From Candidatus Nomurabacteria bacterium (GTDB lineage: Bacteria > Patescibacteriota > Patescibacteriia > HK-STAS-PATE-3), in the NCBI GenBank assembly GCA_023898465.1, contig CP060223.1:544001-608000 (forward strand): a DNA stretch of 64,000 nucleotides, read 5' to 3'. Shown piece by piece: positions 696 through 54,527 of the stretch (positions within the stretch are counted from its first letter, which is position 1; the number at the start of each line of letters is the position of its first letter). The translations under genes were made by a program, and so were the position numbers. The notes beneath the pieces are model-generated. The model worked only from the letters and a program-made list of their open reading frames with translations, was not told the DNA's origin and did no database searches.

Positions 696-2465
696 TTATG
701 TAAATTTGATAACCTGCCCAGGTTGAAGAGACTTACCTGATTGCGTCTGTGGCTGACTATGTTTCTCTTGTGCCTGAACAGACTTTGACTGCTCAGCTTG
801 CTTCGGAGTATTTTTGGCTGGCTGACTCTTTTCCTGAGGTTGCTTCTTCTTAGGCTTCGCTGTGAATTGCACAGGACCTTTACTCAGCGCCTCGTGTAAG
901 CTAATTTCTTTTGGTGGCTCAGGAGCTACTTCACGCAACTGCTCAGGCTCAGGTGCCGTTTGTGTAAAATTCGGTCGATCGTTTCTTCCCTGCTCTCGCT
1001 CATTGCGTGGACGGGAGCTGTTTTGATTACCTTGAGGATTTGGTTGACGATTTCGGTCATTCCCGCCTGATCGTTGTCGAGATCCGCCGCCTTGATTTTG
1101 ACGCGGTCCACTTCCCCCTCGACGATCATTTCCACCCCTATTACCGCCGCTACGATTTCCGCCACCCTGGGAACCCTGTCCGAGGAAGATTTCATCAACT
1201 CCAGTCCATCGGCGGATTTTATCTTCTACAATCTCTCGCTTCTTAGCATAGCGCTCACGTGACACCTCAATCACTTTTTGCCCATTACCGGTTGGACCGC
1301 TCACTGGCTCCAGAGTTGTAGCGGAAAAAGGCTCAGAAGCTACTCCATCAATCATTAAGCGGAGATAAATATCGTACTTGGTCAGGTTTACTAAATCAGT
1401 CTCAGTGAAGGTGGGATCAAACTCTTTAGCCAAAAACTCTGCATCAGCGGCACCAACACGGAAACACACGATCGATCCGACGTTGCCAAAAACAGCCGCG
1501 CGAACTTGCTCATCTAACTGCTCAATATACTGGTGAGCCATGATAAGATTTAAGCGATACTTACGCGCCTCTGACAAAATGTTGGCAAAGCTCTCAGTGG
1601 CAAAGTTTTGAAATTCGTCAACATAGAGGAAAAAATCTTTACGATCTTTTTCCGCAATGTCTACGCGACTCATGGCCGCCAACTGAATCTTGGTAATCAT
1701 CATACCACCCAGCAAAGCTGCATTATCTTCACCAATACGGCCTTTGGAAAGGTTCAGTAAGACAATCTTTTGCTCGTCCATCAATTGCCGCAAATCAAAA
1801 GTACTCTTCGGCTGGCCAATGATATTACGAATCATTGATGAGGAAAGAAATTGACCAATCTTGTTTTGGATAGGTGAAACAGCTTCGGTACGGAATTGGT
1901 TAGCGTATTGGCCGAATTCCTCATGCCAGAAAGCCTTCACAATAGGATCAGTTAGCTTCTCCACCACTTTTGATCGATAGTCGTTGTCGACGAGAATACG
2001 AGGAATACCCAAAAGTGTTGACCCAGGATACTCAATCAAGGAGAGAATACTATTGCGCAAAATGTATTCCAATCGAGGTCCCCATGAGTCGCTCCACATT
2101 TTTTTAAACACCGAAACAAGACCCGAGGCTACTAAGTGGCGGTGGGCAGGGTTTACACTTTCTAAGACGTTGAAGGCTACCGGATAATCTACATCAGCCG
2201 GATTAATATACACCACATCATTAATTCGATGTGAAGGAATGTAATCTAAAATCTTTTCCACAAAGTCACCGTGCGGATCAATCACAGCTAAGCCATGACC
2301 AGCTCGCACATCCTGGATCATCATATTTTCAAGCACCGTCGTCTTACCCATACCGGTCTTACCGATAAAGTACATGTGACGGCGTCGATCATCTATTCTA
2401 ATACCAAAGCGCCGCTGCTGATTGCGGAAATTCGTTTTAGCAAAAAAATTAATATCTTCACTCAT
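696..2465 (-). CDS. VirD4/TraG/TraD-like type IV coupling-protein ATPase (FtsK/HerA superfamily). It has no N-terminal TM segment and carries a long disordered RGG/KQ-rich C-terminal tail.
   Basis: Walker A is YFIGKTGMGKTT and Walker B/DEFQ is LYVDEFQNF. The block ...RKYRLNLIMAHQYIEQLDE...GNVGSIVCFRVG matches the T4CP C-terminal (TraM-recognition) region. The tail (about 190 aa) is GGNRGG/RQ-rich then KQ-rich. Confidence 0.7.
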   Translation of the reverse strand: MSEDINFFAKTNFRNQQRRFGIRIDDRRRHMYFIGKTGMGKTTVLENMMIQDVRAGHGLAVIDPHGDFVEKILDYIPSHRINDVVYINPADVDYPVAFNVLESVNPAHRHLVASGLVSVFKKMWSDSWGPRLEYILRNSILSLIEYPGSTLLGIPRILVDNDYRSKVVEKLTDPIVKAFWHEEFGQYANQFRTEAVSPIQNKIGQFLSSSMIRNIIGQPKSTFDLRQLMDEQKIVLLNLSKGRIGEDNAALLGGMMITKIQLAAMSRVDIAEKDRKDFFLYVDEFQNFATESFANILSEARKYRLNLIMAHQYIEQLDEQVRAAVFGNVGSIVCFRVGAADAEFLAKEFDPTFTETDLVNLTKYDIYLRLMIDGVASEPFSATTLEPVSGPTGNGQKVIEVSRERYAKKREIVEDKIRRWTGVDEIFLGQGSQGGGNRSGGNRGGNDRRGGSGPRQNQGGGSRQRSGGNDRNRQPNPQGNQNSSRPRNEREQGRNDRPNFTQTAPEPEQLREVAPEPPKEISLHEALSKGPVQFTAKPKKKQPQEKSQPAKNTPKQAEQSKSVQAQEKHSQPQTQSGKSLQPGQVIKFT

Positions 2466-2468
2466 GGA

Positions 2469-3887
2469 TTATATTGGGAGATTACTGGGCGGTTGATCCT
2501 TTTCCTCGGCGTCCGAACTGAGCACCTCTTGATCAGGGTCCACCGGCACGGACTGAACTTGCTTTGCTCGACGAATTGGCACCACTTCAACTGGTAAACT
2601 GCTTGGAGGTTCAGCGCGGCGAGCTTCTGTCTTCTGCACTAATGGAGCTTTCACGTTCACTACTGGGAAGTGATAAATGGTGGCAAGCTCTTCAATGTTC
2701 AGCACATAGGGATCAGCACCGGTCGACATGTCACGATTTTGGAAGGCTCGTAAAATTCGCTTCTTCTTAGTGGCAATCCGTTTTTCTTTACCCAAGTATT
2801 TTGCTTTTGGCTTTGTCTTCTTATCGACTTTGAAGCCATTCATGTCCAGGGTATTAAATTGCTTTAAGGCTCCGGTAATACCTGGCACGCGATCCTTGGA
2901 AAAAGAATCGCCTTCGCCTAAGTATACAATACGCATTTTACAATCGAAATAGAGCTTGGCGGTCTTGTACGAAATCGCTTCAATAACTGCTTTATCGTTT
3001 GGCGTTAAGTGACTCATGATAGAAGCCTCTTTTGAATCCGAGGATTCCTCTTTACCAAAAGGACTGACAAGGTCAGCGGTAAAGGTTTCAGTCAAGCCAC
3101 TGGCAACCTGTTTTGGTAGCCAAAGCACATTATCAAGCAAGCCTCCACCACCTCCACTTGATCCATAGGTTGCCTTAGCGAGCTTCTTAATAATTCCCCG
3201 AGCTCCATCCAGCCACGAATCATCATCTGGTGGCACAATCATTGTCTGAATCCAAAGCTGCTCACCTGGTCGTAAGCGGCTCATATATTCAAGCAGTGAT
3301 GCCATCGGATCAAGCAGCTGCTGCGTCATCGTATGCTCAAAAGCCGGATAGGTGCGGATCGGGTAATAATCCTTTTGACGCAACACAATATCCGCTCCCC
3401 AGAGATCGTACTCTTCGTTTGGAAACTGGGCGACAAACTGCTGGGTGTAGTCCTCTACTTCGCTAATTTCCGCGTCTGGATACTGTGCGTAAAAAGCCGA
3501 CTCAACTAAATCACGATATTGAATAGGAATCCGCACGAGATATTGGATAAAGCCGCCGATGCTGATAATTTCAAAGCTGAGCGGTGGCTGAAACTCTCCC
3601 TTAATATTTTTTTCGTACCAGGAGGGTGCTGACTCAACACCATGGATGTGCGCAAAAGCTGACTCGAGCGCCTTCGGTGTCTGCTCAGTTTCACGTGGTA
3701 CATCAATCGCTAAAATGACGTACTCAATAGTAGACGCAAAACGCTCCTGGGCGTAACCAGTCCATAGCTTGAAGCCTCCCCAAAACAACGCAACGATAAT
3801 AATAAGCCAGCCGCCATGTGTAAAGAGAAACCAGGTGATGGCGAAAGGGTTAGAAAATTCGCTGAGGAAGGAAAAATCAATTGTCAT
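2469..3887 (-). CDS. Hypothetical membrane protein with N-terminal TM helices and a soluble domain of about 430 aa. Probable partner of the downstream ATPase.
   Basis: Hydrophobic FAITWFLFTHGGWLIIIVALFWGGF near the N-terminus. There is a 3-nt gap to the ATPase gene, on the same strand. No family recognised. Confidence 0.6.
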   Translation of the reverse strand: MTIDFSFLSEFSNPFAITWFLFTHGGWLIIIVALFWGGFKLWTGYAQERFASTIEYVILAIDVPRETEQTPKALESAFAHIHGVESAPSWYEKNIKGEFQPPLSFEIISIGGFIQYLVRIPIQYRDLVESAFYAQYPDAEISEVEDYTQQFVAQFPNEEYDLWGADIVLRQKDYYPIRTYPAFEHTMTQQLLDPMASLLEYMSRLRPGEQLWIQTMIVPPDDDSWLDGARGIIKKLAKATYGSSGGGGGLLDNVLWLPKQVASGLTETFTADLVSPFGKEESSDSKEASIMSHLTPNDKAVIEAISYKTAKLYFDCKMRIVYLGEGDSFSKDRVPGITGALKQFNTLDMNGFKVDKKTKPKAKYLGKEKRIATKKKRILRAFQNRDMSTGADPYVLNIEELATIYHFPVVNVKAPLVQKTEARRAEPPSSLPVEVVPIRRAKQVQSVPVDPDQEVLSSDAEEKDQPPSNLPI

Positions 3888-18284: not shown

Positions 18285-18363
18285 CCCCTTTCTTGTTATG
18301 CTGTGAATAAGTATAGCACTGAATGAAAAATAGTGCTATATATTGGGATTTATTACTAGAATA

Positions 18364-36897: not shown

Positions 36898-38268
36898 TTA
36901 TGACCTCAGCCACTCTCTCCCCTGTCGTACGAGCAGCTCTTCTGCTTCCTCGGGGTCCTGGAGAAGCTCACGTACCACGCGCTCAAGTCGCACTGATTGC
37001 GAACCCTTCACCAATACGATGTCATGCAGACCTACTACCGAGCGGAGAAAAACCACTGCAGCTTTTGCGTCGGGAAACTCGTGCACTTCCTCCTCAGGAA
37101 AACCTGCTTCACGTGCTGCAGCTGCGATCTTGGCACCCAGCTTGCCAACGGTCACGAGAATATCGGCATGTCCTTTTACCGTCTTTCCAATTTCAGCATG
37201 TGCGTCATCAGTGTATTCCCCCAGCTCAGCCATATCACCTAACACCACAATACGGCGGAAAAAAGTAGCGGATTCAATGGTCTCAGATTTTTTTAATGGT
37301 CCAGTTGTAAGGTGATGTCGCAAATCCTTGGACAAATCACTGATCAACTGAAGTGCCGCAGTCACTGCACGTGGCGAGGCATTATATGAATCATCAATCA
37401 GGAGAGAACGCTTCTGACCTTTGAGTAAACGAGTGCGGCCACGTGGCGGGACGAAATGACGAAAGGCCTCAGCGATGTCGCGCAGATCCATACCATAGGC
37501 AAGTGCCACGCATGTTGCAGCTAGGGCGCTGGAAATAATTGCCTGCCCTACACTTCCTCGCAGCTCCAATGTTGCACTCTTATCCTCAAAATGTACTACG
37601 CAGCGCATGCCCTCGATGCTGGGAAACGCTTCAAATGATTCCTGCTTCCCATACAAGAAACCTACCTCGGTTGCCTGAACGTCAGCTTCTGCGTGAATGC
37701 CATAGCTCAGCACCCGCGACTTGGTCAGTTTATGAAATTCTAAGACTCGCTCATCATCTGCATTGAGAATGGTGTAGCCATCATCTTCTGTGCTTTTTGC
37801 CAGGACCGACTTTTCCTCTGCTACCTTCTCAACTGATCCAAAAAATTCCGTGTGCACTGGAGCAACTGCGGTGACAACACTTACCCGTGGTCGCGCAATG
37901 CTACAGAGATAGCTAATATCGCCCGGATGATCAGCGCCCATTTCTAGTATCAAGACTTCAGGGAAAGGACGACGTTGCAAAAGTAGCTTTGTCGCTTTGA
38001 TAAAAATTCCTAGCCAGGCAAAAGGGTTCCGACCGCCGCTCTTCGCGTCAATAATCGCCAGAGGTAAGCCAAGCTCGTTATTCAAGTTACCCTGACTCCG
38101 TCGCACCGCAAAAGCCCCGCTCATGACAGTGAAAATTGCTTCTTTGGTACTGGTTTTTCCAACGCTGCCCGTAATCGCCACCACATCGGGTTGATACTTA
38201 GCTAGGATTTTCCGTGCATACCAGGCTAGGATGCGCTGCACATACTGCTGGAGCTTTGAGATAGACAT
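36898..38268 (-). CDS. murF: UDP-N-acetylmuramoyl-tripeptide--D-alanyl-D-alanine ligase MurF.
   Basis: Mur ligase P-loop ITGSVGKTSTKE, DDSYNASP motif, C-terminal domain. Confidence 0.85.
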   Translation of the reverse strand: MSISKLQQYVQRILAWYARKILAKYQPDVVAITGSVGKTSTKEAIFTVMSGAFAVRRSQGNLNNELGLPLAIIDAKSGGRNPFAWLGIFIKATKLLLQRRPFPEVLILEMGADHPGDISYLCSIARPRVSVVTAVAPVHTEFFGSVEKVAEEKSVLAKSTEDDGYTILNADDERVLEFHKLTKSRVLSYGIHAEADVQATEVGFLYGKQESFEAFPSIEGMRCVVHFEDKSATLELRGSVGQAIISSALAATCVALAYGMDLRDIAEAFRHFVPPRGRTRLLKGQKRSLLIDDSYNASPRAVTAALQLISDLSKDLRHHLTTGPLKKSETIESATFFRRIVVLGDMAELGEYTDDAHAEIGKTVKGHADILVTVGKLGAKIAAAAREAGFPEEEVHEFPDAKAAVVFLRSVVGLHDIVLVKGSQSVRLERVVRELLQDPEEAEELLVRQGREWLRS

Positions 38269-38388
38269 ATAGAGTAGTATAGCATTATCACCCTAGCGAT
38301 AAATGCACATCTTGACAATTCTCAGGAAAATATATAGTATACGGCCGAAAACCAAAAAAAGAATACGCTCTCTTCTACTCCCCCGGCG

Positions 38389-38430
38389 GGCCTCCAGACT
38401 ACTTCTCTGGAGGCCCCCTTTCTTTATTCT
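38389..38430 (+). terminator. Plus-oriented stem-loop GGCCTCCAGA-N7-TCTGGAGGCC followed by CCCTTTCTTTATTCTTT. Terminator-like, transcript unknown.
   Basis: 10-bp perfect stem at 38389-38415 and a T-rich tail, read directly. Confidence 0.35.
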
Positions 38431-38453
38431 TTACTAAAAAGACTTTGCATGGT

Positions 38454-38670
38454 TTGACAGTAAAAAAGTGAAAGGTATAAGCTGACAACGGAAACGGCCC
38501 GGACGTGTGGAGATGCTTCAAGATAGGGGTCGTAGTCCATGCCCAAAAATCGCACATTCGCATGGAGGAGGGGTAGAGGGTAATTCAGAAGCCGTCCGGG
38601 CACTTTGCCGGATCGTGAACCCTCCAGTCGGAGCCTCGGAATCGGTGTGCGTGATTGCCGGGGCTTTTTT
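38454..38670 (+). ncRNA. Candidate sRNA A: TTGACA-N16-TATAAG promoter, about 180-nt GC-rich structured body, GCCGGGGC plus TTTTTT terminator.
   Basis: Promoter at 38454-38481. Long-range pairing GCCCGGACG/CGTCCGGGC and CCATGC/GCATGG. T6 at 38665-38670. The overlapping ORFs 38424..38798 and 38507..38740 look non-protein-like. Confidence 0.3.
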
Positions 38671-38671
38671 A

Positions 38672-38878
38672 TTGACAAAAAATTTCCATTTGTTACTATG
38701 GCTGCATCGCACCTTCCCGCTCCTTTTTTCAACTTCCTAGCAGCTGATTCAGCTGCATTCGCGTTCGCTCTACGGACTTCCCCTTTCTCTGTTCTCACTG
38801 CTCCCTCCTGTCTTCCGTGTTCTGGCTTCGCGTCTCGTTCTCCCAGCCAGGTGCAACATTGTACCTGGCTTTCTTTTT
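38672..38878 (+). ncRNA. Candidate sRNA B: TTGACA-N16-TACTAT promoter, about 170-nt C/U-rich body, GCCAGGT-N10-ACCTGGC plus TTTCTTTTT terminator.
   Basis: Promoter at 38672-38699 and terminator at 38846-38878. Internal GCAGCTG-att-CAGCTGC hairpin. CU-rich tracts (CCTTCCCGCTCC, CTCCCTCCTGTCTTCC). Confidence 0.3.
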
Positions 38879-39410
38879 AAAAATCTACAGCAGCCAAATA
38901 TCTCGCTGTATTCACATTTCGTACAGTCATGTACTTATACAGCTTTGACCCAATCACTTTACTCAACTGACTTTTATTCAGGTTCTCTTTTTTTACGTGC
39001 CAGACAATCGCACCTTTTATATAACGCAAGTCCATATACTCTTTTTTCATTGGTAACTCATCAAGAGTTTTCTTATCATCAACTTCAGGGAAAAGGAAAG
39101 CTACATCGGTCTTTTGTGTCTGATGATCGTTCTGCCAAGTCTGAGGAATTGCTGCCACGATTTTCTTCACCTCAGCTTGTGTCTTGATTAACACGGGGAT
39201 AGGAAAGCCAAATTCATTTACTAGGGCTTTTGTCAGCGCTGACTGAATATCCTTACTCTTCCCTTTTGCATTAAAAAGAATGTTGCCAGAATTTATGTAA
39301 GTTGAAACATCCGTGTAACCCAAACTCCCACACAACTCCTTGAGTCGCTTCATTTCTACTTTGTTATTCCCGCCAACATTAATGCCGCGGAGGAGGGCTA
39401 TGTATCTCAT
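38877..39410 (-). CDS. DUF1697 family protein.
   Basis: MRYIALLRGINVGGNNKVEMKRLKELCGSLGYTDVSTYINSGNILF is a canonical DUF1697 N-terminus. AT-richer than the flanks. Confidence 0.8.
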   Translation of the reverse strand: MRYIALLRGINVGGNNKVEMKRLKELCGSLGYTDVSTYINSGNILFNAKGKSKDIQSALTKALVNEFGFPIPVLIKTQAEVKKIVAAIPQTWQNDHQTQKTDVAFLFPEVDDKKTLDELPMKKEYMDLRYIKGAIVWHVKKENLNKSQLSKVIGSKLYKYMTVRNVNTARYLAAVDF

Positions 39411-39973
39411 TGATTGATCACCAAAAACTTCTGCTCAGGAATTTTAAGAATTTCGCACGGCTCTCCAAAACTCTCAAGACCTTCAAGCTTATCTTGTTTG
39501 TCTTCCGACCAATGGACAAACACTTTCACATTTAAGATCCCCAAACCTTGGTGAAATTTCTGACTATCAACATGATAAAAATATCGCGATAACATTTGCG
39601 CCCCAGCGGATGATCCTGCTACTGTTTTTCCCTGCCACAACTCTACCAGCATAGGCACCTTCCGCATATGTTCCAAAAGTACTAATGTCTCACCGCCAAT
39701 AGTATAAATTGCATCAGCGTTCTTAATCTGCTCAATAAAAGTCTGTGTATTCTCGGACGCCATAACAAAGTGTATAGATTTCTCCAGAGCAACTACAGAA
39801 AATCGTTCTTTGGTTAAATCAAAAAATTCTTTCCAGAGGCTTTTATCACGTGCAAAGGGAATAAACAACACAGTAGGCTCGCTCGGTACATCCTTTAAAA
39901 TTTCCTGCACGTAAGCTCGATTATCTACAGTATCATATTTTAGCGCACCACCGTGCAGTATATATTTTGTCAT
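39407..39973 (-). CDS. Peptidase S51 (peptidase E / cyanophycinase-like, class-I glutamine-amidotransferase-like) family protein.
   Basis: GKTVAGSSAGAQML is a GxSAG nucleophile elbow in the expected position. 4-bp overlap with the DUF1697 gene. Confidence 0.6.
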   Translation of the reverse strand: MTKYILHGGALKYDTVDNRAYVQEILKDVPSEPTVLFIPFARDKSLWKEFFDLTKERFSVVALEKSIHFVMASENTQTFIEQIKNADAIYTIGGETLVLLEHMRKVPMLVELWQGKTVAGSSAGAQMLSRYFYHVDSQKFHQGLGILNVKVFVHWSEDKQDKLEGLESFGEPCEILKIPEQKFLVINQ

Positions 39974-39993
39974 ACGTTAAACCTTTTCGACAT

Positions 39994-40512
39994 TTATTTT
40001 CTCCCGACATTCTCATCCATGTCTTTGCCTCCAATAAAAGACAAAACATCAAAATCAGGATCAAGCAACTTTACTAAATCAAGGTCAGGACGATTCATTA
40101 TTTCCACGCCTGGCATTTTTTCACCTCTAGACAACGCCTTTTTTAGTTCTTCAAATTCCTCTTTATCCAAGACAAAATCAACATCGCCCACCTCGGTGTG
40201 CTGATCTGGTTTACGAATATAGAGATAGGTATAGGTGGTCTCCGGAATATCACCTTGGGCAGGAATAACAATGGGCTCATGGAGACGATAATATTTTTGA
40301 TTCCAATTATCAGATTCTTTTGTCAGCTCCTGGCGAACTTTTGTGAGATAGCTATACTCGTCATCGTCATGGCAAAATATTCCGAGATTACCTGCCACTG
40401 GTAAATATCTGCCAAAATTTTTTTTACATAACTCAAAACACTTAAGGTGAGTATATGTTATCGCTTGTATCAATTGCTCTTTGTCTTGGATTGGACTAAA
40501 TCGATACTGCAT
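39994..40512 (-). CDS. Hypothetical protein.
   Basis: Intact ORF, AT-richer composition. No motif recognised. Confidence 0.5.
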   Translation of the reverse strand: MQYRFSPIQDKEQLIQAITYTHLKCFELCKKNFGRYLPVAGNLGIFCHDDDEYSYLTKVRQELTKESDNWNQKYYRLHEPIVIPAQGDIPETTYTYLYIRKPDQHTEVGDVDFVLDKEEFEELKKALSRGEKMPGVEIMNRPDLDLVKLLDPDFDVLSFIGGKDMDENVGRK

Positions 40513-40578
40513 GATTTCTGCTATAGAACTTCCTTTACAATACGCAGCTGAAGATGGCCATCTTCAGCTGCGGTTGAG

Positions 40579-42336
40579 TTACTCCCCAACTACACTCGGC
40601 GGAACTTCGAAGTAATTCAAGAGGAACTTCGCAATATCGCCGAATAAAGGCGCAGCAGTGCTCTCGGCAAATTTCACGTCCTTAGGATCCACAATCTTGG
40701 TCACCATGACAAACTTCGGGTCCTCGACCGGACCGAAACCGGCGAAGGAGCCAATGGTGCGATTAGGATCATAGCCCGGACCGTCAGTGCGTGGAATCTG
40801 CGCCGTACCTGTTTTACCGGCAATGTAATATCCTGGCACAGCCGCTCTCGTACCGTGACCATTCTTCACTACATTTACGAGCATGGCTGATACTGTGGTT
40901 GAGGTTTTTGGATCCAACACTTGTCGTACAGCTGTGGGGTGAGTTTTCACATGGAAGTCATTTGGCTTCACAATTTCATCAACGATGTATGGTTTATACA
41001 AAGTTCCCCCATTTGCAATAGCTGCATAGGCCGCGGCCAGCTGCAAAGGCGTGGCGGTGATACCTTGACCAAAAGAAGCGGTGTCAACGTAAATGTCACG
41101 TCCGCTGGCCAGCTCTCCGAGATTACCAGCCGACTCATTACCAAGCTCAACACCAGTCTGCTCACCAAAACCAAAGCGCTTCACATAGTCATAAAAAACG
41201 TCGTTCCCGGCCTGTTGCGCAGCAAAAATTGCTCCGGTGTTTAGAGATTTTTCCAACACCTCGGTCATTGTTTGCGTACCGTATGTTTTATCGTCGGAAT
41301 TCCGAATCGTGAAGCCGCCAACCTCTACACTTCCTTCATCAACATAAGTGGTTTCCGGTGTAACCTTGCCAGTATCAACCGCGGTCGCCATGGTAATGGG
41401 CTTGAAAATCGATCCAGGCTCATAAGGACTAATGGCCGGATTAAGAAAAACATCCAAGTCAGTCACCTCGTTGTAATGATTCGGATCAAAGTCAGGATAA
41501 CCGCACATGGCCAATATGGCACCGCTATCTGGATCAAGTATAACCACCGCCCCACTCTCAGCCCCGTGCTTCAGTACGGCTTCTTGAAGCTTCGTGCACA
41601 CAGTGTATTCCAGGGTACGGTCAATGGTAAGGATGAGATCATCACCATCTTTAGCATCTTGGATAAATCGATCGCCGACGGTAATCCAACGACCGGCCGC
41701 GTCGCGCTCAGCTTGCAAATAACCCTGTTGACCAGCCAGCTCTTCATCAAAATAACCTTCCAGTCCATACTGTCCTTTTTTCACATCCTCTGACATGCCA
41801 AGGAAACCAAGGATTTGGCTGGCCAGACTTCCCTCTGGATAAAGGCGTCCCTTTTCACTAATGAAAGAGATGCCATCAATCTCTAATGCCTCAATTTTTT
41901 CTTTGGTAGCAACGCTTATATTATGCTCAATCGGTTCATAGACATCGTCGCTTTTTGATAATCGAGCAAGTAATGTTTCTTTATCAAGCGTGATGAAACT
42001 TTCAAGCTTTTCGGTCACATCCTCCGGATCTTCAATTCGCTTTGGCACAGCATATACTAGGAAGCGTTCCTCATTGGTAGCCAGTGGAAAAAGCTGCCCA
42101 TCTGAATAGCGATCGTGCGCGTAAATTTCTCCACGATCTGGTAAAAGCCGTTGCTCAATTTCGTGCTGACCAGAGGCCAGCGCTTCGTAGAACCCGTGCG
42201 CTAAAACCTGCAGCGTGAATAGACGAACTACTAAAATACTCGAAAAGCCAAATAACAAAATAAGCAGCACGGTGAGACGATCAAGTCGCCATCTTGGCTG
42301 CTGTTGTCGTGGTCGATTGCGTCCGTACCGCGTCAT
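40579..42336 (-). CDS. ftsI: Penicillin-binding protein 2/FtsI (class B PBP, septal transpeptidase).
   Basis: N-terminal TM, dimerisation domain, transpeptidase motifs SIFK (SxxK), SLN (SxN), KTGT (KTG). Confidence 0.85.
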   Translation of the reverse strand: MTRYGRNRPRQQQPRWRLDRLTVLLILLFGFSSILVVRLFTLQVLAHGFYEALASGQHEIEQRLLPDRGEIYAHDRYSDGQLFPLATNEERFLVYAVPKRIEDPEDVTEKLESFITLDKETLLARLSKSDDVYEPIEHNISVATKEKIEALEIDGISFISEKGRLYPEGSLASQILGFLGMSEDVKKGQYGLEGYFDEELAGQQGYLQAERDAAGRWITVGDRFIQDAKDGDDLILTIDRTLEYTVCTKLQEAVLKHGAESGAVVILDPDSGAILAMCGYPDFDPNHYNEVTDLDVFLNPAISPYEPGSIFKPITMATAVDTGKVTPETTYVDEGSVEVGGFTIRNSDDKTYGTQTMTEVLEKSLNTGAIFAAQQAGNDVFYDYVKRFGFGEQTGVELGNESAGNLGELASGRDIYVDTASFGQGITATPLQLAAAYAAIANGGTLYKPYIVDEIVKPNDFHVKTHPTAVRQVLDPKTSTTVSAMLVNVVKNGHGTRAAVPGYYIAGKTGTAQIPRTDGPGYDPNRTIGSFAGFGPVEDPKFVMVTKIVDPKDVKFAESTAAPLFGDIAKFLLNYFEVPPSVVGE

Positions 42337-42348
42337 AGCACCTAGGCT

Positions 42349-42708
42349 TTAACGACGGGCAAAGGCGGAATCGGTCGGACTAAGATATTCAATATGCGCC
42401 ACTTCGGTTAAGCCGAGCTGGCCACTTGCTTCCTGGACTGCACTCAGAGATTGCAGCTCAGTCGCCTCTACTTCCAGGCGACGATTTTCTTTACGCAACT
42501 CATCTACTCGATTTTCCAGCGTCTTGATTTCGAAACCAGTTGTCGCCACATTGTTAATCAACGCTAAATAGGCTCCCCCACCAATCACTGCGAGCGTCAC
42601 CGTTAACACGGTAATTGCAGTGAGGCGCAGCTTCAATGTACGAAGCAGCGTACCTGCTAAGCGTTGAGAAATGGTGCTTTGTTGAGTTGTGCGATCGTAA
42701 TAGGTCAT
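42349..42708 (-). CDS. ftsL: FtsL/DivIC-like cell-division protein (single TM plus coiled coil).
   Basis: TM helix LTAITVLTVTLAVIGGGAYLALI followed by a leucine-zipper-like ENRVDELRKENRRLEVEATELQ. Positioned between rsmH and ftsI. Confidence 0.6.
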   Translation of the reverse strand: MTYYDRTTQQSTISQRLAGTLLRTLKLRLTAITVLTVTLAVIGGGAYLALINNVATTGFEIKTLENRVDELRKENRRLEVEATELQSLSAVQEASGQLGLTEVAHIEYLSPTDSAFARR

Positions 42709-43658
42709 TGGATTTTTTCTGCTACTCGGAGTTTAGCGCTCCTGGAACGTGAATTGTGCGCAATCTCATCCTGACCCGGCACGACTGGTTTCTTGGTCAG
42801 CACCTGCAATGAAGCATGGTGATTGCACGTGCAGACCGGTTGTTGGGCAGGACAGATGCAGTCTGTTGATTCGCGCCGGAAGAAACGCTTCACGATCCTA
42901 TCCTCTAGCGAGTGATAACTGAGGACCGCGATGCGACCGCCGGGTTGAAGCAAGTGAACTACTTCTGGTAAAACGCGCGCGAGGACGTCGAGCTCGTCAT
43001 TGACTTTAATGCGAAGCGCTTGGAAGACTTGCGTCGCAGGGTGAATGCGCGATCGCCCTCGCTTGGGTTTTACCTTATCTATACAGGCGACAAGTTGTGG
43101 AATGTGCGTGAAGGGATTTTTTTGACGCTCGGTAACGATTGCTCGAGCAATGCGACCAGCTGCTGACTCTTCCCCGTACTCTTTGAATATTTTTTTTAGC
43201 TCTTGCTCAGATGCGGTATTGAGGATATCGGCAGCCGTTGCTTGTGCGCTGGTCGGATCAAAGCGGAAATCGAGAGGCGCGGAACTTAGAAAGGAAAATC
43301 TTGATGCGAGAGCTTCGATTGCCAGTGAAGAGAGACCAAGGTCCAATAGAACACCGCGTAGTTGAATATCTGGGAATTGTTCATGGATGCGCTGTGCTGC
43401 GTGAACAAAATTATCATGCAGGAGATGAGTGCGCTGGCTATACTTCTGTAAACGCGCCTTGGCTATATCCAGTGTGACTGGATCCGCCTCTACTCCAATG
43501 AGTATTCCCTTTGGAGCTGTGCGCTCAAGCATTGCTTCAGCGTGCCCTCCCCCACCTAGAGTCAGATCAAGCACCGTATCGCCTGAACCTAGGTTGAGGA
43601 GCGCTAATGTTTCGTTGAGAAGAACAGGAATGTGTCCGCGGCCGGATTGGGCAGGCAT
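42705..43658 (-). CDS. rsmH: 16S rRNA (cytosine1402-N4)-methyltransferase RsmH (MraW).
   Basis: HIPVLLNETLALL...DLTLGGGGHAEAM SAM-binding signature. Upstream ORF residues are an extension artefact. Confidence 0.85.
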   Translation of the reverse strand: MPAQSGRGHIPVLLNETLALLNLGSGDTVLDLTLGGGGHAEAMLERTAPKGILIGVEADPVTLDIAKARLQKYSQRTHLLHDNFVHAAQRIHEQFPDIQLRGVLLDLGLSSLAIEALASRFSFLSSAPLDFRFDPTSAQATAADILNTASEQELKKIFKEYGEESAAGRIARAIVTERQKNPFTHIPQLVACIDKVKPKRGRSRIHPATQVFQALRIKVNDELDVLARVLPEVVHLLQPGGRIAVLSYHSLEDRIVKRFFRRESTDCICPAQQPVCTCNHHASLQVLTKKPVVPGQDEIAHNSRSRSAKLRVAEKIQ

Positions 43659-43659
43659 C

Positions 43660-44103
43660 TTAGACACCGATTTCACCAAGCGCCTCGGCAATATCACCGC
43701 TGGACTTCTCGGTTTTGGTCTTATAAGCGGCCCAAGCAGTTTCATCCCAGAGTTCCAGGCGGTTGTACAAGCCAGCTACCACTACCTTCTTCTTCATAGT
43801 GGCGTACTTGCGCAAGTAATCAGGCAACATGATGCGCCCCTGCTTATCAATCTCCACATCCATGGCCCCAGCCAGCATTAAGCGTGAAAAAGCGCGGGTG
43901 TTTGCTTGAGCAATTGGCAAATTCGCTAACTTGTCAGCTAACTTCTCCCACTCTTGTTGTGGATACAAGAAAAGACAGTTGTCCAAGCCTCGGGTGACGA
44001 CTGCCCCTTTGCTGAGTGCTTCACGGAATTTTCGAGGTACTGCGAGGCGACCTTTTTCATCAATCGCGTGGTAGTACTCTCCGATAAACATGCTGGTGGT
44101 CAT
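43660..44103 (-). CDS. mraZ: Transcriptional regulator MraZ.
   Basis: MFIGEYYHAIDEKGRLAVPRKFRE... with duplicated SpoVT/AbrB-like halves. The start may be 44091. Confidence 0.85.
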   Translation of the reverse strand: MTTSMFIGEYYHAIDEKGRLAVPRKFREALSKGAVVTRGLDNCLFLYPQQEWEKLADKLANLPIAQANTRAFSRLMLAGAMDVEIDKQGRIMLPDYLRKYATMKKKVVVAGLYNRLELWDETAWAAYKTKTEKSSGDIAEALGEIGV

Positions 44104-44118
44104 TTCTGGCTTTTTTCG

Positions 44119-44159
44119 TTATCCACATTAGGGAAGGGTTATCCCCACATTTATCCACT
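44119..44159. promoter_or_regulatory. Three direct repeats TTATCCACA / TTATCCCCA / TTATCCACT (DnaA-box consensus; GTGG[AG] on the mraZ strand) immediately upstream of mraZ. Candidate MraZ operator and/or DnaA sites.
   Basis: Boxes at 44119-44127, 44139-44147 and 44151-44159, read directly. Period 10-11 bp with one skipped unit. Confidence 0.5.
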
Positions 44160-44421
44160 TCTCACCCTTCTTTAACCATTTTACCCCACTTCCTGGTTTT
44201 CGTCAACCACTTTAAAAACCACAAGAATTAGGCGTATTGGTCAAGAAAATGGTGAAATAGCACAATTTCAAGAAATAACGTTACACTTAGGCACTTCCCC
44301 ACTTCGACCTCAGGAAGATGTACGTCAAAAATGACAAACTTGACCTTTTGCTGAGCCTTTGTAAACTGCCGACACTAAGGAATTCTTTGCACTTTCACAA
44401 TCTACTAGGAGGAGAGCGACA

Positions 44422-53339: not shown

Positions 53340-54527
53340 ATGAAACCCTCCCCTCTTATCAAGCGTTATATCCACGTCCGTTTAAATAGTTTTCTCGCTA
53401 GTATTGTTGAGAGAGAAAACCCCAAACTACAGGGTCGGCCTATTGTAATAAGCGAAATGCATAATAATGAAGAACGCGTGCTGAGTTGTAATATCCCAGC
53501 AAAAAAGCTAGGCATCCAAAAGGGCGATACAATTTTACAGGCAAAGAAGCGCTGTACTTGGGTGGCGGTATTTCCTAGTGACATTGAATTAGCAAAAACC
53601 TATGCGAAAGAGTTTATTGCCCTACTCTGTCGATTTTCCACTAAGGTCTATCCGCATAATCGTTTAGACGAAGCCTACATTGAGCTAGACGTCAGTGGAA
53701 TTGCTGCAAGCTCTCCAGAGGAGTTTGCGGCAACTATCCAGCGAAGCATTAAGGTACAACTTGGTTTAAATGCTAGCATTGGAATTGCACGCACTCGTTC
53801 GGTTGCCTGGAGCGCTGCACTGCATAAGCAGCCCGAAGGGATTACCAGTGTGCCTATTGGTAGTGAGCGCGCTTTTCTTTACCCTCTTCCACTTACTCAG
53901 CTCTACTCGCTGGGACAGCGCTCACGCGAATACCTCCTCTCGCATGGTATTCGGACTATTGGCCAACTAGCTGCTTGCTCCAGTAATTGGTTAGTGGAAC
54001 AGTTTGGCAGTGCAGGATATGAGCTACTTCAGTTAGGTCATGGCCAGGATATAAAAGAAGTGAAAACGCCAACTTTACAGAAGTCTATTTCGCGCTCACT
54101 TCGCTTCGAGGCTCCAACAAGTAATCCTGCATTAATTGAAACTACAGTAGCTCACTTAAGTGAAAAGGCTCTTCGTACGCTCCAAAAGCAGGGTCGACGT
54201 GCTGAGACCGTGGTGCTGCAAGTGACCGACATTTACGGTCGCTCACACCAAAGTCATGCAAAACTTTCTAGCTCACGAAACTCATTCCAAAAAGGACTTT
54301 ACAGTGTTTTTCGTCATCTTACCGCTCAGGTGAGCGCTATTCGTTCTATTGCCGTGCAGCTGCACACGTTGCTAGAAACACCGCAGGAGCAACCAAATCG
54401 TGTATGGCAAAGTCAGCCGGTACAATCAGCTATTTTAGGTCTAGAGTGGAGATCGGGTCAGCGGGCCAGAAAAGCAGCAAGATCAGGCAGCTTGGTGCAG
54501 TTACCACTACTCGGTATGAGCGCTTAG
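53340..54527 (+). CDS. Y-family DNA polymerase homolog lacking the N-terminal catalytic aspartates (ImuB-like, predicted catalytically inactive).
   Basis: IHVRLNSFLASIVEREN aligns to DinB IHVDMDAFFASVE (D to R and D to N). RLDEAYIELDVSG retains DE. Fingers, palm, thumb and little-finger length are appropriate. Confidence 0.65.
   Translation: MKPSPLIKRYIHVRLNSFLASIVERENPKLQGRPIVISEMHNNEERVLSCNIPAKKLGIQKGDTILQAKKRCTWVAVFPSDIELAKTYAKEFIALLCRFSTKVYPHNRLDEAYIELDVSGIAASSPEEFAATIQRSIKVQLGLNASIGIARTRSVAWSAALHKQPEGITSVPIGSERAFLYPLPLTQLYSLGQRSREYLLSHGIRTIGQLAACSSNWLVEQFGSAGYELLQLGHGQDIKEVKTPTLQKSISRSLRFEAPTSNPALIETTVAHLSEKALRTLQKQGRRAETVVLQVTDIYGRSHQSHAKLSSSRNSFQKGLYSVFRHLTAQVSAIRSIAVQLHTLLETPQEQPNRVWQSQPVQSAILGLEWRSGQRARKAARSGSLVQLPLLGMSA

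What the first reader, a model, noticed from the sequence alone, without database searches (positions are those of the whole stretch)
44104..44421. Three DnaA-box-consensus repeats upstream of mraZ (MraZ operator and/or DnaA sites)
TTATCCACA (perfect DnaA box), TTATCCCCA and TTATCCACT occur as direct repeats within 41 bp, starting 16 bp upstream of the mraZ ATG. On the mraZ strand they read GTGG[AG] direct repeats with roughly 10-11 bp periodicity, the pattern reported for MraZ autoregulatory operators. A DnaA-box consensus as the repeat unit raises the possibility of DnaA input into dcw or glmS expression. No dnaA gene or AT-rich DUE is present here, so I do not call an origin.
Basis: partly seen in the sequence, partly recalled or inferred. 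Interest (0 to 1): 0.55.

Follow-up and report, generated by a model that had tools for sequence, protein, structure and literature searches.

The report
MraZ operator with DnaA-like boxes
The three repeats are part of the self-repression site of the cell-division regulator MraZ in a Patescibacteria (CPR) genome. One repeat is also a perfect, conserved binding-site consensus for the replication initiator DnaA, which hints at a direct replication-to-division link but does not prove one.

Summary
TTATCCACA (44119-44127), TTATCCCCA (44139-44147) and TTATCCACT (44151-44159) lie just upstream of mraZ. They belong to a larger array of six helically phased GTGG boxes on the mraZ strand (44222-44126). 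The array overlaps a predicted -35/-10 promoter and the first ~50 transcribed bases.

About 70 of 80 Patescibacteria mraZ loci share this architecture. Its core matches the experimentally defined MraZ operators of E. coli, Bacillus and Mycoplasma, so a MraZ autoregulatory operator is the best explanation (~0.8).

The DnaA resemblance is probably not accidental:
- The promoter-distal box sits at a fixed distance from the array in 38 loci and conserves the positions a DnaA box requires. MraZ is not known to read those bases.
- Exact TTATCCACA copies, often inverted, are about 100-fold enriched upstream of CPR mraZ promoters. They are not enriched in a Bacillaceae control.

Binding by DnaA is inferred (~0.45); I could not obtain a CPR oriC to test it.

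The region is not an origin (no GC-skew switch, no dnaA). It is not tied to glmS, because that neighbourhood is not conserved. It is not an RNA element.

Verdict: a new variant of a known kind, of moderate interest.

The parts
43660..44091 (-). mraZ coding sequence (143 aa from MFIGEY; an in-frame ATG at 44103 would add 4 residues)
   Evidence: Pfam MraZ, E=6e-42. It is 100% identical to a 143-aa NCBI 'MraZ' of a Candidatus Nomurabacteria MAG. Gene callers use the 143-aa start. K13, R15 and R86 align with the DNA-contacting residues of M. genitalium MraZ.
42705..43676 (-). rsmH (mraW), followed by an ftsL-like gene (42349-42708) and ftsI/PBP (40579-42336): the operon controlled by this promoter
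   Evidence: Pfam Methyltransf_5, Transpeptidase and PBP_dimer. Called gene boundaries come from L083.
44119..44127 (-). Box E: TGTGGATAA on the mraZ strand, which is a perfect DnaA-box consensus TTATCCACA on the + strand. It lies at about +45..+53 of the predicted transcript and 22 bp after box D.
   Evidence: In 38 related loci it starts +31 (+/-1) from box C. G, G, A, A are invariant and the last A is kept in 37 of 38; variation falls mainly at DnaA-box positions 3, 5 and 9.
44139..44148 (-).
   Evidence: Nearly invariant in 42 aligned loci. Corresponds to the E. coli third box GTGGGAATAA.
44151..44159 (-).
44161..44168 (-). Degenerate box b' (AGGGTGAG; AGTGGTGA in many relatives), canonical MraZ box 1 position, at the predicted transcription start
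   Evidence: Consensus 'agtGGtgaaAA' 10 bp before box C.
44178..44189 (-). Box B fused to the -10 element: GTGGGGTAAAAT (-10 = TAAAAT, 44178-44183)
   Evidence: Promoter scan, 10 of 12 matches. Conserved as aaaGTGGggTAaAAT in relatives.
44201..44210 (-). Box A fused to the -35 element: GTGGTTGACG (-35 = TTGACG, 44201-44206; 17-nt spacer to the -10)
44219..44222 (-). Box A': GTGG 12 bp upstream of box A, in helical phase with the array
44297..44305 (-). Distal GAAGTGGGG, identical to the 9 nt of box B. It opens an AAGTG x3 run with 8-bp period (44284-44305). Whether it belongs to the operator is uncertain.
   Evidence: Not conserved in L006, the only other glmS-divergent locus.
44340..44367 (+). 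Predicted glmS promoter (TTGACC-N16-TAAACT). The glmS coding sequence runs 44422-46323. This is a neighbour, not part of the conserved element.

Best explanation
The three repeats are the downstream half of the MraZ autoregulatory operator built into the promoter of the mraZ-rsmH-ftsL-ftsI operon (Pmra) of a Patescibacteria bacterium.

Six to seven GTGG boxes lie on one face of the helix at spacings of 12, 21, 31, 10 and 22 bp, which is about 10.6 bp per turn. Two are fused to the -35 (GTGG-TTGACG) and the -10 (GTGGGG-TAAAAT). Three sit at about +1..+33 (b', C, D) and one sits at about +45 (E).

Inferred mechanism: oligomeric MraZ inserts one subunit into the major groove of each GTGG through K13, R15 and R86. 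It binds the boxes cooperatively and so blocks RNA polymerase binding and promoter escape. This gives negative feedback on mraZ and on the division and cell-wall genes behind it.

Boxes b', C and D are the counterparts of the canonical three-box operator. Box E is an extra element that happens to be a perfect DnaA consensus. Who reads box E is not settled (see the rival explanations).
For: Shown here:
- The mraZ identity and operon context.
- The strand-specific, phased GTGG cluster is unique in 64 kb.
- A sigma-70-type promoter is predicted exactly where the boxes sit.
- The same -35 / -10 / box layout is seen in about 70 of 80 Patescibacteria mraZ loci whose upstream neighbours all differ.
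- E. coli Pmra reads TTGACA-N17-TAAACT-N7-GTGGGaaattGTGGGgcaaaGTGGGaataa. Bacillaceae loci read TAAAAT-N6-GTGG x3 at 10 bp. Both have the same position and period as b'-C-D.
- The window's MraZ keeps K13, R15, R86 and D11, D82.

From the literature:
- MraZ boxes are GTG(G/T) with a 6-nt spacer, the TSS lies inside box 1, and binding is cooperative and tolerates longer spacers (PMC12957436).
- B. subtilis has three GTGG[A/T]G repeats that are required for repression (bioRxiv 10.1101/2022.02.09.479790).
Against: - No binding or transcription data exist for any Patescibacteria MraZ.
- The TSS is predicted, not measured.
- Box b' is degenerate in this genome (AGGG instead of GTGG).
- Known MraZ base contacts cover only (G)TG(G/T). 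They do not explain why ATAA after the core is nearly invariant in boxes C, D and E.
- They also do not explain why exact inverted TTATCCACA copies accompany the promoter in relatives.
Confidence: 0.8

Rival explanations
1. Composite operator (additional to MraZ, not exclusive of it). Box E, and in relatives one to three further TTATCCACA copies near the promoter, are genuine DnaA boxes. The replication initiator would then directly modulate dcw transcription in Patescibacteria. From +45 it would act as a roadblock or as a partner of the MraZ array. From about -50/-60 in relatives it would act as an activator or repressor.
For: - Box E over 38 loci: position fixed at +31 (+/-1) from box C. Columns read n-G-T-G-[G30/C6/T2]-A-[T31/C4/A3]-A-A-[C/G]. 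DnaA-box positions 2, 4, 6 and 8 are invariant and position 1 is kept in 37 of 38. Variation falls mainly at positions 3, 5 and 9 (position 9 is A in 24 of 38), roughly as in TT[A/T]TNCACA.
- MraZ contacts only the GTG(G/T) bases.
- Exact TTATCCACA occurs 58 times in 451 kb of CPR loci. 44 of these lie within 400 nt upstream of mraZ, and 23 of those are inverted relative to the GTGG array.
- It is the top non-AT 9-mer upstream of the -35: 17 loci against 1 locus in 197 kb of background, with flanks G...G.
- 28 of 72 loci carry an exact copy outside the C-E zone (62 of 72 with up to one mismatch). The null values, computed with only the C/D zone excluded, are 0.5% and 13%.
- Loci whose MraZ boxes are GTGGnGAAAA still keep a perfect inverted 9-mer.
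- The Bacillaceae control shows 1 of 72 exact and 12 of 72 with up to one mismatch.
- The MraZ DNA-binding loops are identical in the ATAA-type and GAAA-type groups.
- Precedents: DnaA ChIP at the B. subtilis yllB(mraZ)/ftsL promoter (PMC2533591, PMC8203912). E. coli MraZ binds a site overlapping the mioC DnaA box (PMC4446571).
Against: - The DnaA box consensus of Patescibacteria was not determined, because no dnaA/oriC locus could be fetched.
- The window itself has no distal copy.
- Boxes C and D carry mismatches at the important positions 9 and 7.
- Position 9 of box E is A in only 24 of 38 loci.
- In some Magasanikbacteria-type loci the inverted 9-mer overlaps a terminator-like hairpin.
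- Another factor specific for the 9-mer cannot be excluded.
Confidence: 0.45
2. Pure resemblance. All boxes are MraZ boxes. The ATAA tails are only A/T-rich spacers that help the DNA bend around the MraZ oligomer, and they happen to complete a DnaA-like 9-mer.
For: - A DnaA box contains GTGG by definition.
- Spacers are A-rich in E. coli, Bacillus and distant CPR operators (GTGGnGAAAA).
- Boxes C and D fit the 10-bp MraZ register.
- Box E lies two helical turns after box D, and a weak 'GT' or a full GTGG sits at the skipped position in relatives.
Against: - It does not account for base-specific invariance of A-T-A-A in box E.
- It does not account for the 2-nt register shift of ATAA between C (GTGG-ATAA) and D (GTGGGG-ATAA).
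- It does not account for isolated, inverted exact 9-mers with a T (not A) before GTGG.
- It does not account for their absence in Bacillaceae.
Confidence: 0.3
3. Replication origin, or a datA/DBC-like DnaA-titrating cluster.
For: There are three DnaA-like boxes in 41 bp. Gene orientation diverges at 44.1-44.4 kb. The intergenic spacer is large and somewhat AT-richer (GC 0.41 against 0.47).
Against: - GC skew is at or below about zero in every 2-kb bin of the window (the three non-negative bins are at most +0.014). The cumulative curve keeps falling to 64 kb, so there is no V-shaped minimum.
- There is no dnaA or dnaN in the window or about 5 kb beyond its left end.
- There is no DnaA-trio run and no marked AT-rich stretch.
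- The boxes travel with mraZ whatever the neighbour.
- In the complete chromosome CP181398.1 mraZ lies about 245 kb from the record start (weak evidence).
- A titration role cannot be excluded, but only one box is a full consensus.
Confidence: 0.04
4. An element serving glmS (promoter control or a leader RNA such as the glmS ribozyme), or a structured 5'-UTR RNA of mraZ.
For: glmS is transcribed divergently from the same 318-bp spacer.
Against: - glmS is the neighbour in only 1 of 80 related loci, while the boxes are conserved.
- Rfam finds nothing at the gathering threshold in the window, nor at E<=1 in 44050-44480.
- The predicted mraZ leader folds no better than shuffles (z=-0.10).
- Box E keeps its distance to the promoter, not to the start codon.
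Confidence: 0.02

Closest known systems
E. coli Pmra / MraZ operator (Eraso et al. 2014, as cited in PMC4446571; sequence read here from NC_000913.3)
   Same: First gene of the dcw cluster. A sigma-70 promoter is followed directly by three direct GTGG(G) repeats at 10-bp period. The third box, GTGGGAATAA, compares with GTGGGGATAA here.
   Different: E. coli has only the three boxes downstream of the -10. Here further GTGG boxes are fused to the -35 and -10, and an extra consensus DnaA 9-mer lies 22 bp further downstream. In E. coli the reported MraZ/DnaA-box overlap is at mioC, not at mraZ.
Bacillus subtilis MraZ-binding repeats (MBRs) and DnaA association with the yllB(mraZ)/ftsL promoter (bioRxiv 10.1101/2022.02.09.479790; Goranov 2005 as cited in PMC2533591 and PMC8203912)
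   Same: Three GTGG[A/T]G repeats at 10 bp right after TAAAAT. Repression requires R15 and R86. There is a precedent for DnaA acting on this very promoter.
   Different: Bacillaceae-type loci show no enrichment of consensus TTATCCACA near the promoter (1 of 72 exact). Patescibacteria loci do (28-31 of 72 exact).
Mycoplasma genitalium 4-box MraZ operator (cryo-EM, PMC12957436)
   Same: GTG(G/T) boxes with 6-nt spacers, more than three boxes, TSS inside or next to box 1, and the same K13/R15/R86 triad in the protein.
   Different: The Mycoplasma boxes are contiguous at 10 bp. Here the array has gaps of two and three turns, spans about 100 bp including the -35 and -10, and carries conserved ATAA tails.
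DnaA-regulated promoters (dnaA, mioC, nrdAB, sda; review PMC8203912)
   Same: Single or few 9-mers TTATNCACA in either orientation close to a promoter. Box E matches 9 of 9.
   Different: Binding is untested. Here the box is phase-locked to the operator of another regulator.

Membership tests
MraZ autoregulatory operator (MraZ-binding repeats at Pmra) | Lies directly upstream of mraZ, the first gene of a dcw-type operon | tested here: met
   The gene order is mraZ-rsmH-ftsL-like-ftsI on the - strand, and the boxes lie 28-131 bp upstream of the start.
MraZ autoregulatory operator (MraZ-binding repeats at Pmra) | At least three direct repeats of GTG(G/T)/GTGG at about 10-bp period | tested here: met
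   C-D are exactly 10 bp apart. Box b' sits 10 bp before C but is degenerate here (GTGG in relatives). Six GTGG are in phase, R=0.94 at 10.5-10.6 bp.
MraZ autoregulatory operator (MraZ-binding repeats at Pmra) | Boxes overlap or abut the promoter/TSS | tested here: inconclusive
   The predicted -35/-10 (10 of 12 matches) is conserved in relatives and fused to boxes A and B. No experimental TSS is available.
MraZ autoregulatory operator (MraZ-binding repeats at Pmra) | Cognate MraZ with both DXXXR motifs (K13, R15, R86) | tested here: met
   Ungapped alignment to 9qlr and 1n0e shows D11-x-K13-x-R15 and D82-x-x-x-R86 present.
MraZ autoregulatory operator (MraZ-binding repeats at Pmra) | MraZ binds the repeats and represses transcription | not testable with these tools
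   Needs EMSA, footprinting or a reporter assay.
DnaA box / DnaA-regulated promoter | 9-mer matching TTATNCACA | tested here: met
   Box E matches 9 of 9. Box C is mismatched at position 9 and box D at position 7.
DnaA box / DnaA-regulated promoter | Conservation of the whole 9-mer beyond what the overlapping MraZ core explains, independent of orientation | tested here: met
   See the column counts of box E, the inverted exact copies in relatives, and the negative Bacillaceae control. The window itself has no inverted copy.
DnaA box / DnaA-regulated promoter | The organism's DnaA recognises this consensus (same boxes clustered at its oriC) | not tested
   No Patescibacteria dnaA/oriC locus could be fetched.
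DnaA box / DnaA-regulated promoter | DnaA occupancy or DnaA-dependent expression | not testable with these tools
   Needs EMSA or ChIP.
Chromosomal origin (oriC) | GC-skew polarity switch at the site | tested here: not met
   Skew stays at or below about zero across the window (no bin above +0.014), and the cumulative curve is monotonic apart from a plateau at 42-48 kb.
Chromosomal origin (oriC) | AT-rich unwinding element / DnaA-trios next to the boxes; dnaA/dnaN linkage | tested here: not met
   The minimum 50-nt GC is 0.30, there is no trio run, and there is no dnaA or dnaN.
glmS ribozyme / other Rfam RNA | Covariance-model match in the spacer | tested here: not met
   No hits at the gathering threshold and none at E<=1.

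The most novel reading that the evidence does not exclude
[quoted passage not shown] One sits at a fixed helical phase behind the MraZ array, and others, often inverted, lie 10-15 bp upstream of a -35. In these minimal-genome, regulator-poor bacteria the replication initiator and MraZ would then jointly set dcw expression. That would be a hard-wired replication-to-division coupling, far more explicit in sequence than the one proposed for B. subtilis.
Probability: 0.45. Interest if true: 0.6.

Novelty: new variant of a known kind. Interest (0 to 1): 0.42.

Why it matters
How bacteria couple chromosome replication to division is still poorly understood. The review PMC8203912 states that no major effect of DnaA's transcriptional activity on the timing of cytokinesis has been shown in any species.

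A phylum-wide, sequence-explicit pairing of a MraZ operator with consensus DnaA boxes would give a concrete system to test. It needs only two small recombinant proteins and a 120-bp probe.

It would also be one of the first regulatory circuits defined for the largely uncultured Patescibacteria. If only the MraZ reading holds, the result is an expected operator in a new phylum, useful mainly for annotation.

Tried and rejected
- **Origin of replication.** Rejected: no skew switch, no dnaA or dnaN, no DUE or DnaA-trios.
- **glmS control or glmS ribozyme.** Rejected: no Rfam hit, and the glmS neighbourhood is not conserved.
- **Structured mraZ leader RNA.** Rejected: z=-0.10.
- **Strain variation.** Three further contigs with the identical MraZ (L083-L085) have a 100% identical spacer, so they give no information.
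- **Walking to dnaA.** A look-up of the leftmost window gene reached only about 5 kb beyond the window and found no dnaA. I considered typing in a DnaA query or following T4SS genes to a CPR oriC. I dropped both because the protein search lists only the closest hits and could not be steered to Patescibacteria.
- **Literature.** Searches for DnaA boxes or MraZ operators in Patescibacteria found nothing relevant. Eraso et al. 2014 is not held.
- **Co-evolution test.** MraZ DNA-binding loops do not differ between loci with ATAA-type and GAAA-type boxes. Only Y/F96 differs.
- **Other MraZ targets in the window.** None found: there is no second GTGG-N6-GTGG and no second GTGG cluster.

Full report
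**Observation.** The 318-bp spacer 44104-44421 separates mraZ (- strand, ORF 43660-44103) from glmS (+ strand, 44422-46323). TTATCCACA (44119-44127), TTATCCCCA (44139-44147) and TTATCCACT (44151-44159) are present as described. The exact 9-mer occurs only once in the 64-kb window on both strands, and that copy is here. Hits with up to one mismatch number 27 against 13.1 expected, and no shuffle reaches 27. Homologues (76 of 80 loci) and gene callers start MraZ at MFIGEY, which is ATG 44091. The nearest box therefore begins 28 bp rather than 16 bp upstream of the likely start.

**Organism and context.** MraZ is 100% identical to a protein of a 'Candidatus Nomurabacteria' MAG. All close relatives are Patescibacteria (CPR). 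Downstream lie rsmH, an ftsL-like gene and ftsI.

**The array in the window.** Read on the mraZ strand, the region is:

cttGTGGtttttaaaGTGG-TTGACG-N17-(GTGGGG)TAAAAT-ggttaaagaAGGGTGAGaa-GTGGATAAat-GTGGGGATAAcccttccctaaT-GTGGATAAcg.

- GTGG starts at 44222, 44210, 44189, 44158, 44148 and 44126, giving spacings of 12, 21, 31, 10 and 22.
- The spacer holds 7 GTGG on this strand and 0 on the other.
- It is the only place in the window with at least 5 GTGG in 110 nt.
- The positions are coherent at 10.5-10.6 bp (R=0.94, p about 0.002).
- GTGG-N6-GTGG occurs once in the window, at boxes C and D.
- The promoter scan places TTGACG (44206-44201), a 17-nt spacer and TAAAAT (44183-44178) on the mraZ strand.
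- Two boxes are therefore fused to the -35 and the -10.

**Conservation.** I fetched 80 Patescibacteria mraZ loci (67-85% identical MraZ). Anchoring on GTGGATAAAAGTGGGGATAA shows that about 70 share one layout:

(GTGG)TTGAC - 17 nt - (aaaGTGGgg)TAaAAT - agtGGtgaaAA - GTGGATAAAA - GTGGGGATAA - about 11 nt - tGTGGAtAA

More distant lineages (Magasanik-, Falkow- and Uhrbacteria types) have GTGGnGAAAA two or three times at 10 bp instead. The upstream neighbour differs almost everywhere: lexA, response regulators, tsaB-like genes and others. glmS is the neighbour only in the window and in L006. The element therefore belongs to mraZ, not to glmS.

**Match to known operators.**
- E. coli Pmra reads TTGACA-N17-TAAACT-N7-GTGGGaaatt-GTGGGgcaaa-GTGGGaataa.
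- 75 Bacillaceae-type loci read TAAAAT-like, then GTGGaGgAAA-GTGGGGGaAT-GTGGTAcAtT.
- The M. genitalium cryo-EM study defines GTG(G/T) boxes with 6-nt spacers, a TSS inside box 1, cooperative binding that tolerates longer spacers, and base contacts by K13, R15 and R86 only. The one exception is a single Ser17 contact.
- The B. subtilis study shows that three GTGG[A/T]G repeats are needed for repression.
- The window's MraZ keeps D11/K13/R15 and D82/R86.
- Boxes b', C and D are thus the counterparts of the canonical three-box operator. Boxes A', A and B (over the promoter) and box E are additions.

**Is the DnaA likeness meaningful?** Several results say that box E is more than another GTGG.
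1. In 38 loci box E starts +31 (32 loci), +30 (3) or +32 (3) from box C. Its columns read n, G38, T34, G38, G30/C6/T2, A38, T31/C4/A3, A38, A37, C20/G13. In DnaA-box numbering, T2, T4, C6 and C8 are invariant and T1 is kept in 37 of 38. Variation falls mainly at positions 3, 5 and 9, roughly as in TT[A/T]TNCACA. The invariant A-A-A bases lie outside the bases MraZ contacts.
2. Exact TTATCCACA occurs 58 times in the 451 kb of CPR loci. 44 copies lie in the 400 nt upstream of mraZ, which is 6.8% of the bases. 23 of those 44 are inverted relative to the GTGG array.
3. Upstream of the -35, TTATCCACA is the top non-AT 9-mer: 17 of 72 loci inverted and 5 direct, against 1 locus in 197 kb of background. 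It has G...G flanks.
4. 28 of 72 loci have an exact copy outside the C-E zone (62 of 72 with up to one mismatch). The Markov null values, computed with only the C/D zone excluded, are 0.5% and 13%.
5. These copies are mostly single sites. They typically lie 10-15 bp upstream of a -35 that reads towards mraZ, and they carry T rather than A before GTGG, unlike box C.
6. Loci whose MraZ boxes lack ATAA still keep a perfect inverted 9-mer.
7. In the Bacillaceae control only 1 of 72 loci has an exact copy, and 12 of 72 have a copy with up to one mismatch, which is the null level.
8. MraZ DNA-binding loops are the same in the ATAA-type and GAAA-type groups, so a changed MraZ specificity is unlikely.

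There are precedents for cross-talk. DnaA was found by ChIP at the B. subtilis yllB(mraZ)/ftsL promoter and represses it on replication arrest. E. coli MraZ binds a site overlapping the mioC DnaA box.

Against this reading:
- I could not obtain any Patescibacteria dnaA/oriC locus to establish that phylum's box consensus.
- The window has no distal copy.
- Boxes C and D are mismatched at positions 9 and 7.
- In some loci the inverted 9-mer forms an arm of a terminator-like hairpin.

That TTATCCACA is the near-universal DnaA box is established knowledge, not something tested here.

**What it is not.**
- *An origin.* GC skew of the + strand is at or below about zero in every 2-kb bin (no bin above +0.014). 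The cumulative curve has a plateau at 42-48 kb but no minimum. No dnaA or dnaN motif occurs in the window, in about 5 kb beyond its left end, or in the 80 loci. The spacer GC is 0.41, its lowest 50-nt window is 0.30, and it has no DnaA-trio run.
- *An RNA element.* Rfam gives nothing and the predicted leader folds like its shuffles.

**Mechanism (inferred).** MraZ oligomers bind the phased GTGG boxes on one helix face, occluding the -35 and -10 and blocking promoter escape. This autoregulates mraZ-rsmH-ftsL-ftsI. Box E, at a fixed two-turn distance, is either a fifth, gapped MraZ box or, somewhat more likely in my view, a DnaA site. A DnaA site there would let the initiator add to or modulate repression.

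**Novelty and score.** A MraZ operator upstream of mraZ is expected. Three things are new:
- the extended, promoter-embedded array in Patescibacteria;
- the phylum-specific, orientation-independent enrichment of consensus DnaA 9-mers at this promoter;
- the phase-locked box E.

I found no report of these in the held literature. I rate it a new variant of a known kind, with interest 0.42.

Noticed in passing
window 44284-44305 (- strand): AAGTG repeated three times at an 8-bp period (GAAGTGGGGAAGTGCCTAAGTGTAA). Its first 9 nt are identical to the box over the mraZ -10. It lies about 40 nt upstream of the predicted glmS -35 and is not conserved in L006.
   Followed up: partly
window 52641-52670 (+); also L003, L007, L010, L012, L017, L023, L027, L028: The lexA promoter reads TTGACATTCGGTTTTTCTTCGGTATATCAT, with a direct repeat TTCGG-N6-TTCGG between the -35 and -10 (a candidate CPR LexA box). 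lexA-dinB follows at 52675-54527. In the other loci the same promoter carries a TGTGGATAA 7-10 nt upstream of its -35, which suggests the 9-mer marks a small regulon.
   Followed up: partly
window 18302-18310 (- strand): TTATTCACA (fits TTATNCACA) directly follows a TATACT -10-like hexamer upstream of a small membrane-protein ORF (MKMNVMDWIAMILLVIGGLNWG...).
   Followed up: no
L038, L042, L044 (about 105-117 nt upstream of box C): The inverted TTATCCACA forms the 5' arm of a terminator-like hairpin whose arms co-vary (ATCCACAC/GTGTGGAT; CACATA/TATGTG). A T-run and a conserved TTAGCCAA follow.
   Followed up: no
L013, L019, L020, L022, L026: A second promoter-like element (TTGACA-N17-T[A/T]AAAA) lies about 100 nt upstream of Pmra, each with TTATCCACA 14-15 nt upstream of its -35.
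   Followed up: no
window 1-64000: There is no Rfam hit at the gathering threshold anywhere in the 64 kb, so no tRNA or other known RNA gene. The stretch around 52180-52480, upstream of lexA, looks visually GC-rich and has no convincing ORF.
   Followed up: no
window 696-3887 (- strand); L081: A TrwB_AAD_bind/DUF87 ATPase (589 aa) sits next to a DUF8128 protein, a pair reminiscent of the Patescibacteria T4SS-related genes discussed in PMC12102498. No dnaA lies nearby in this genome.
   Followed up: partly
window 36898-43745: The dcw cluster is split. mraZ-rsmH-ftsL-ftsI is followed by several unrelated small genes before a Mur-ligase-like gene at 36898-38268.
   Followed up: no
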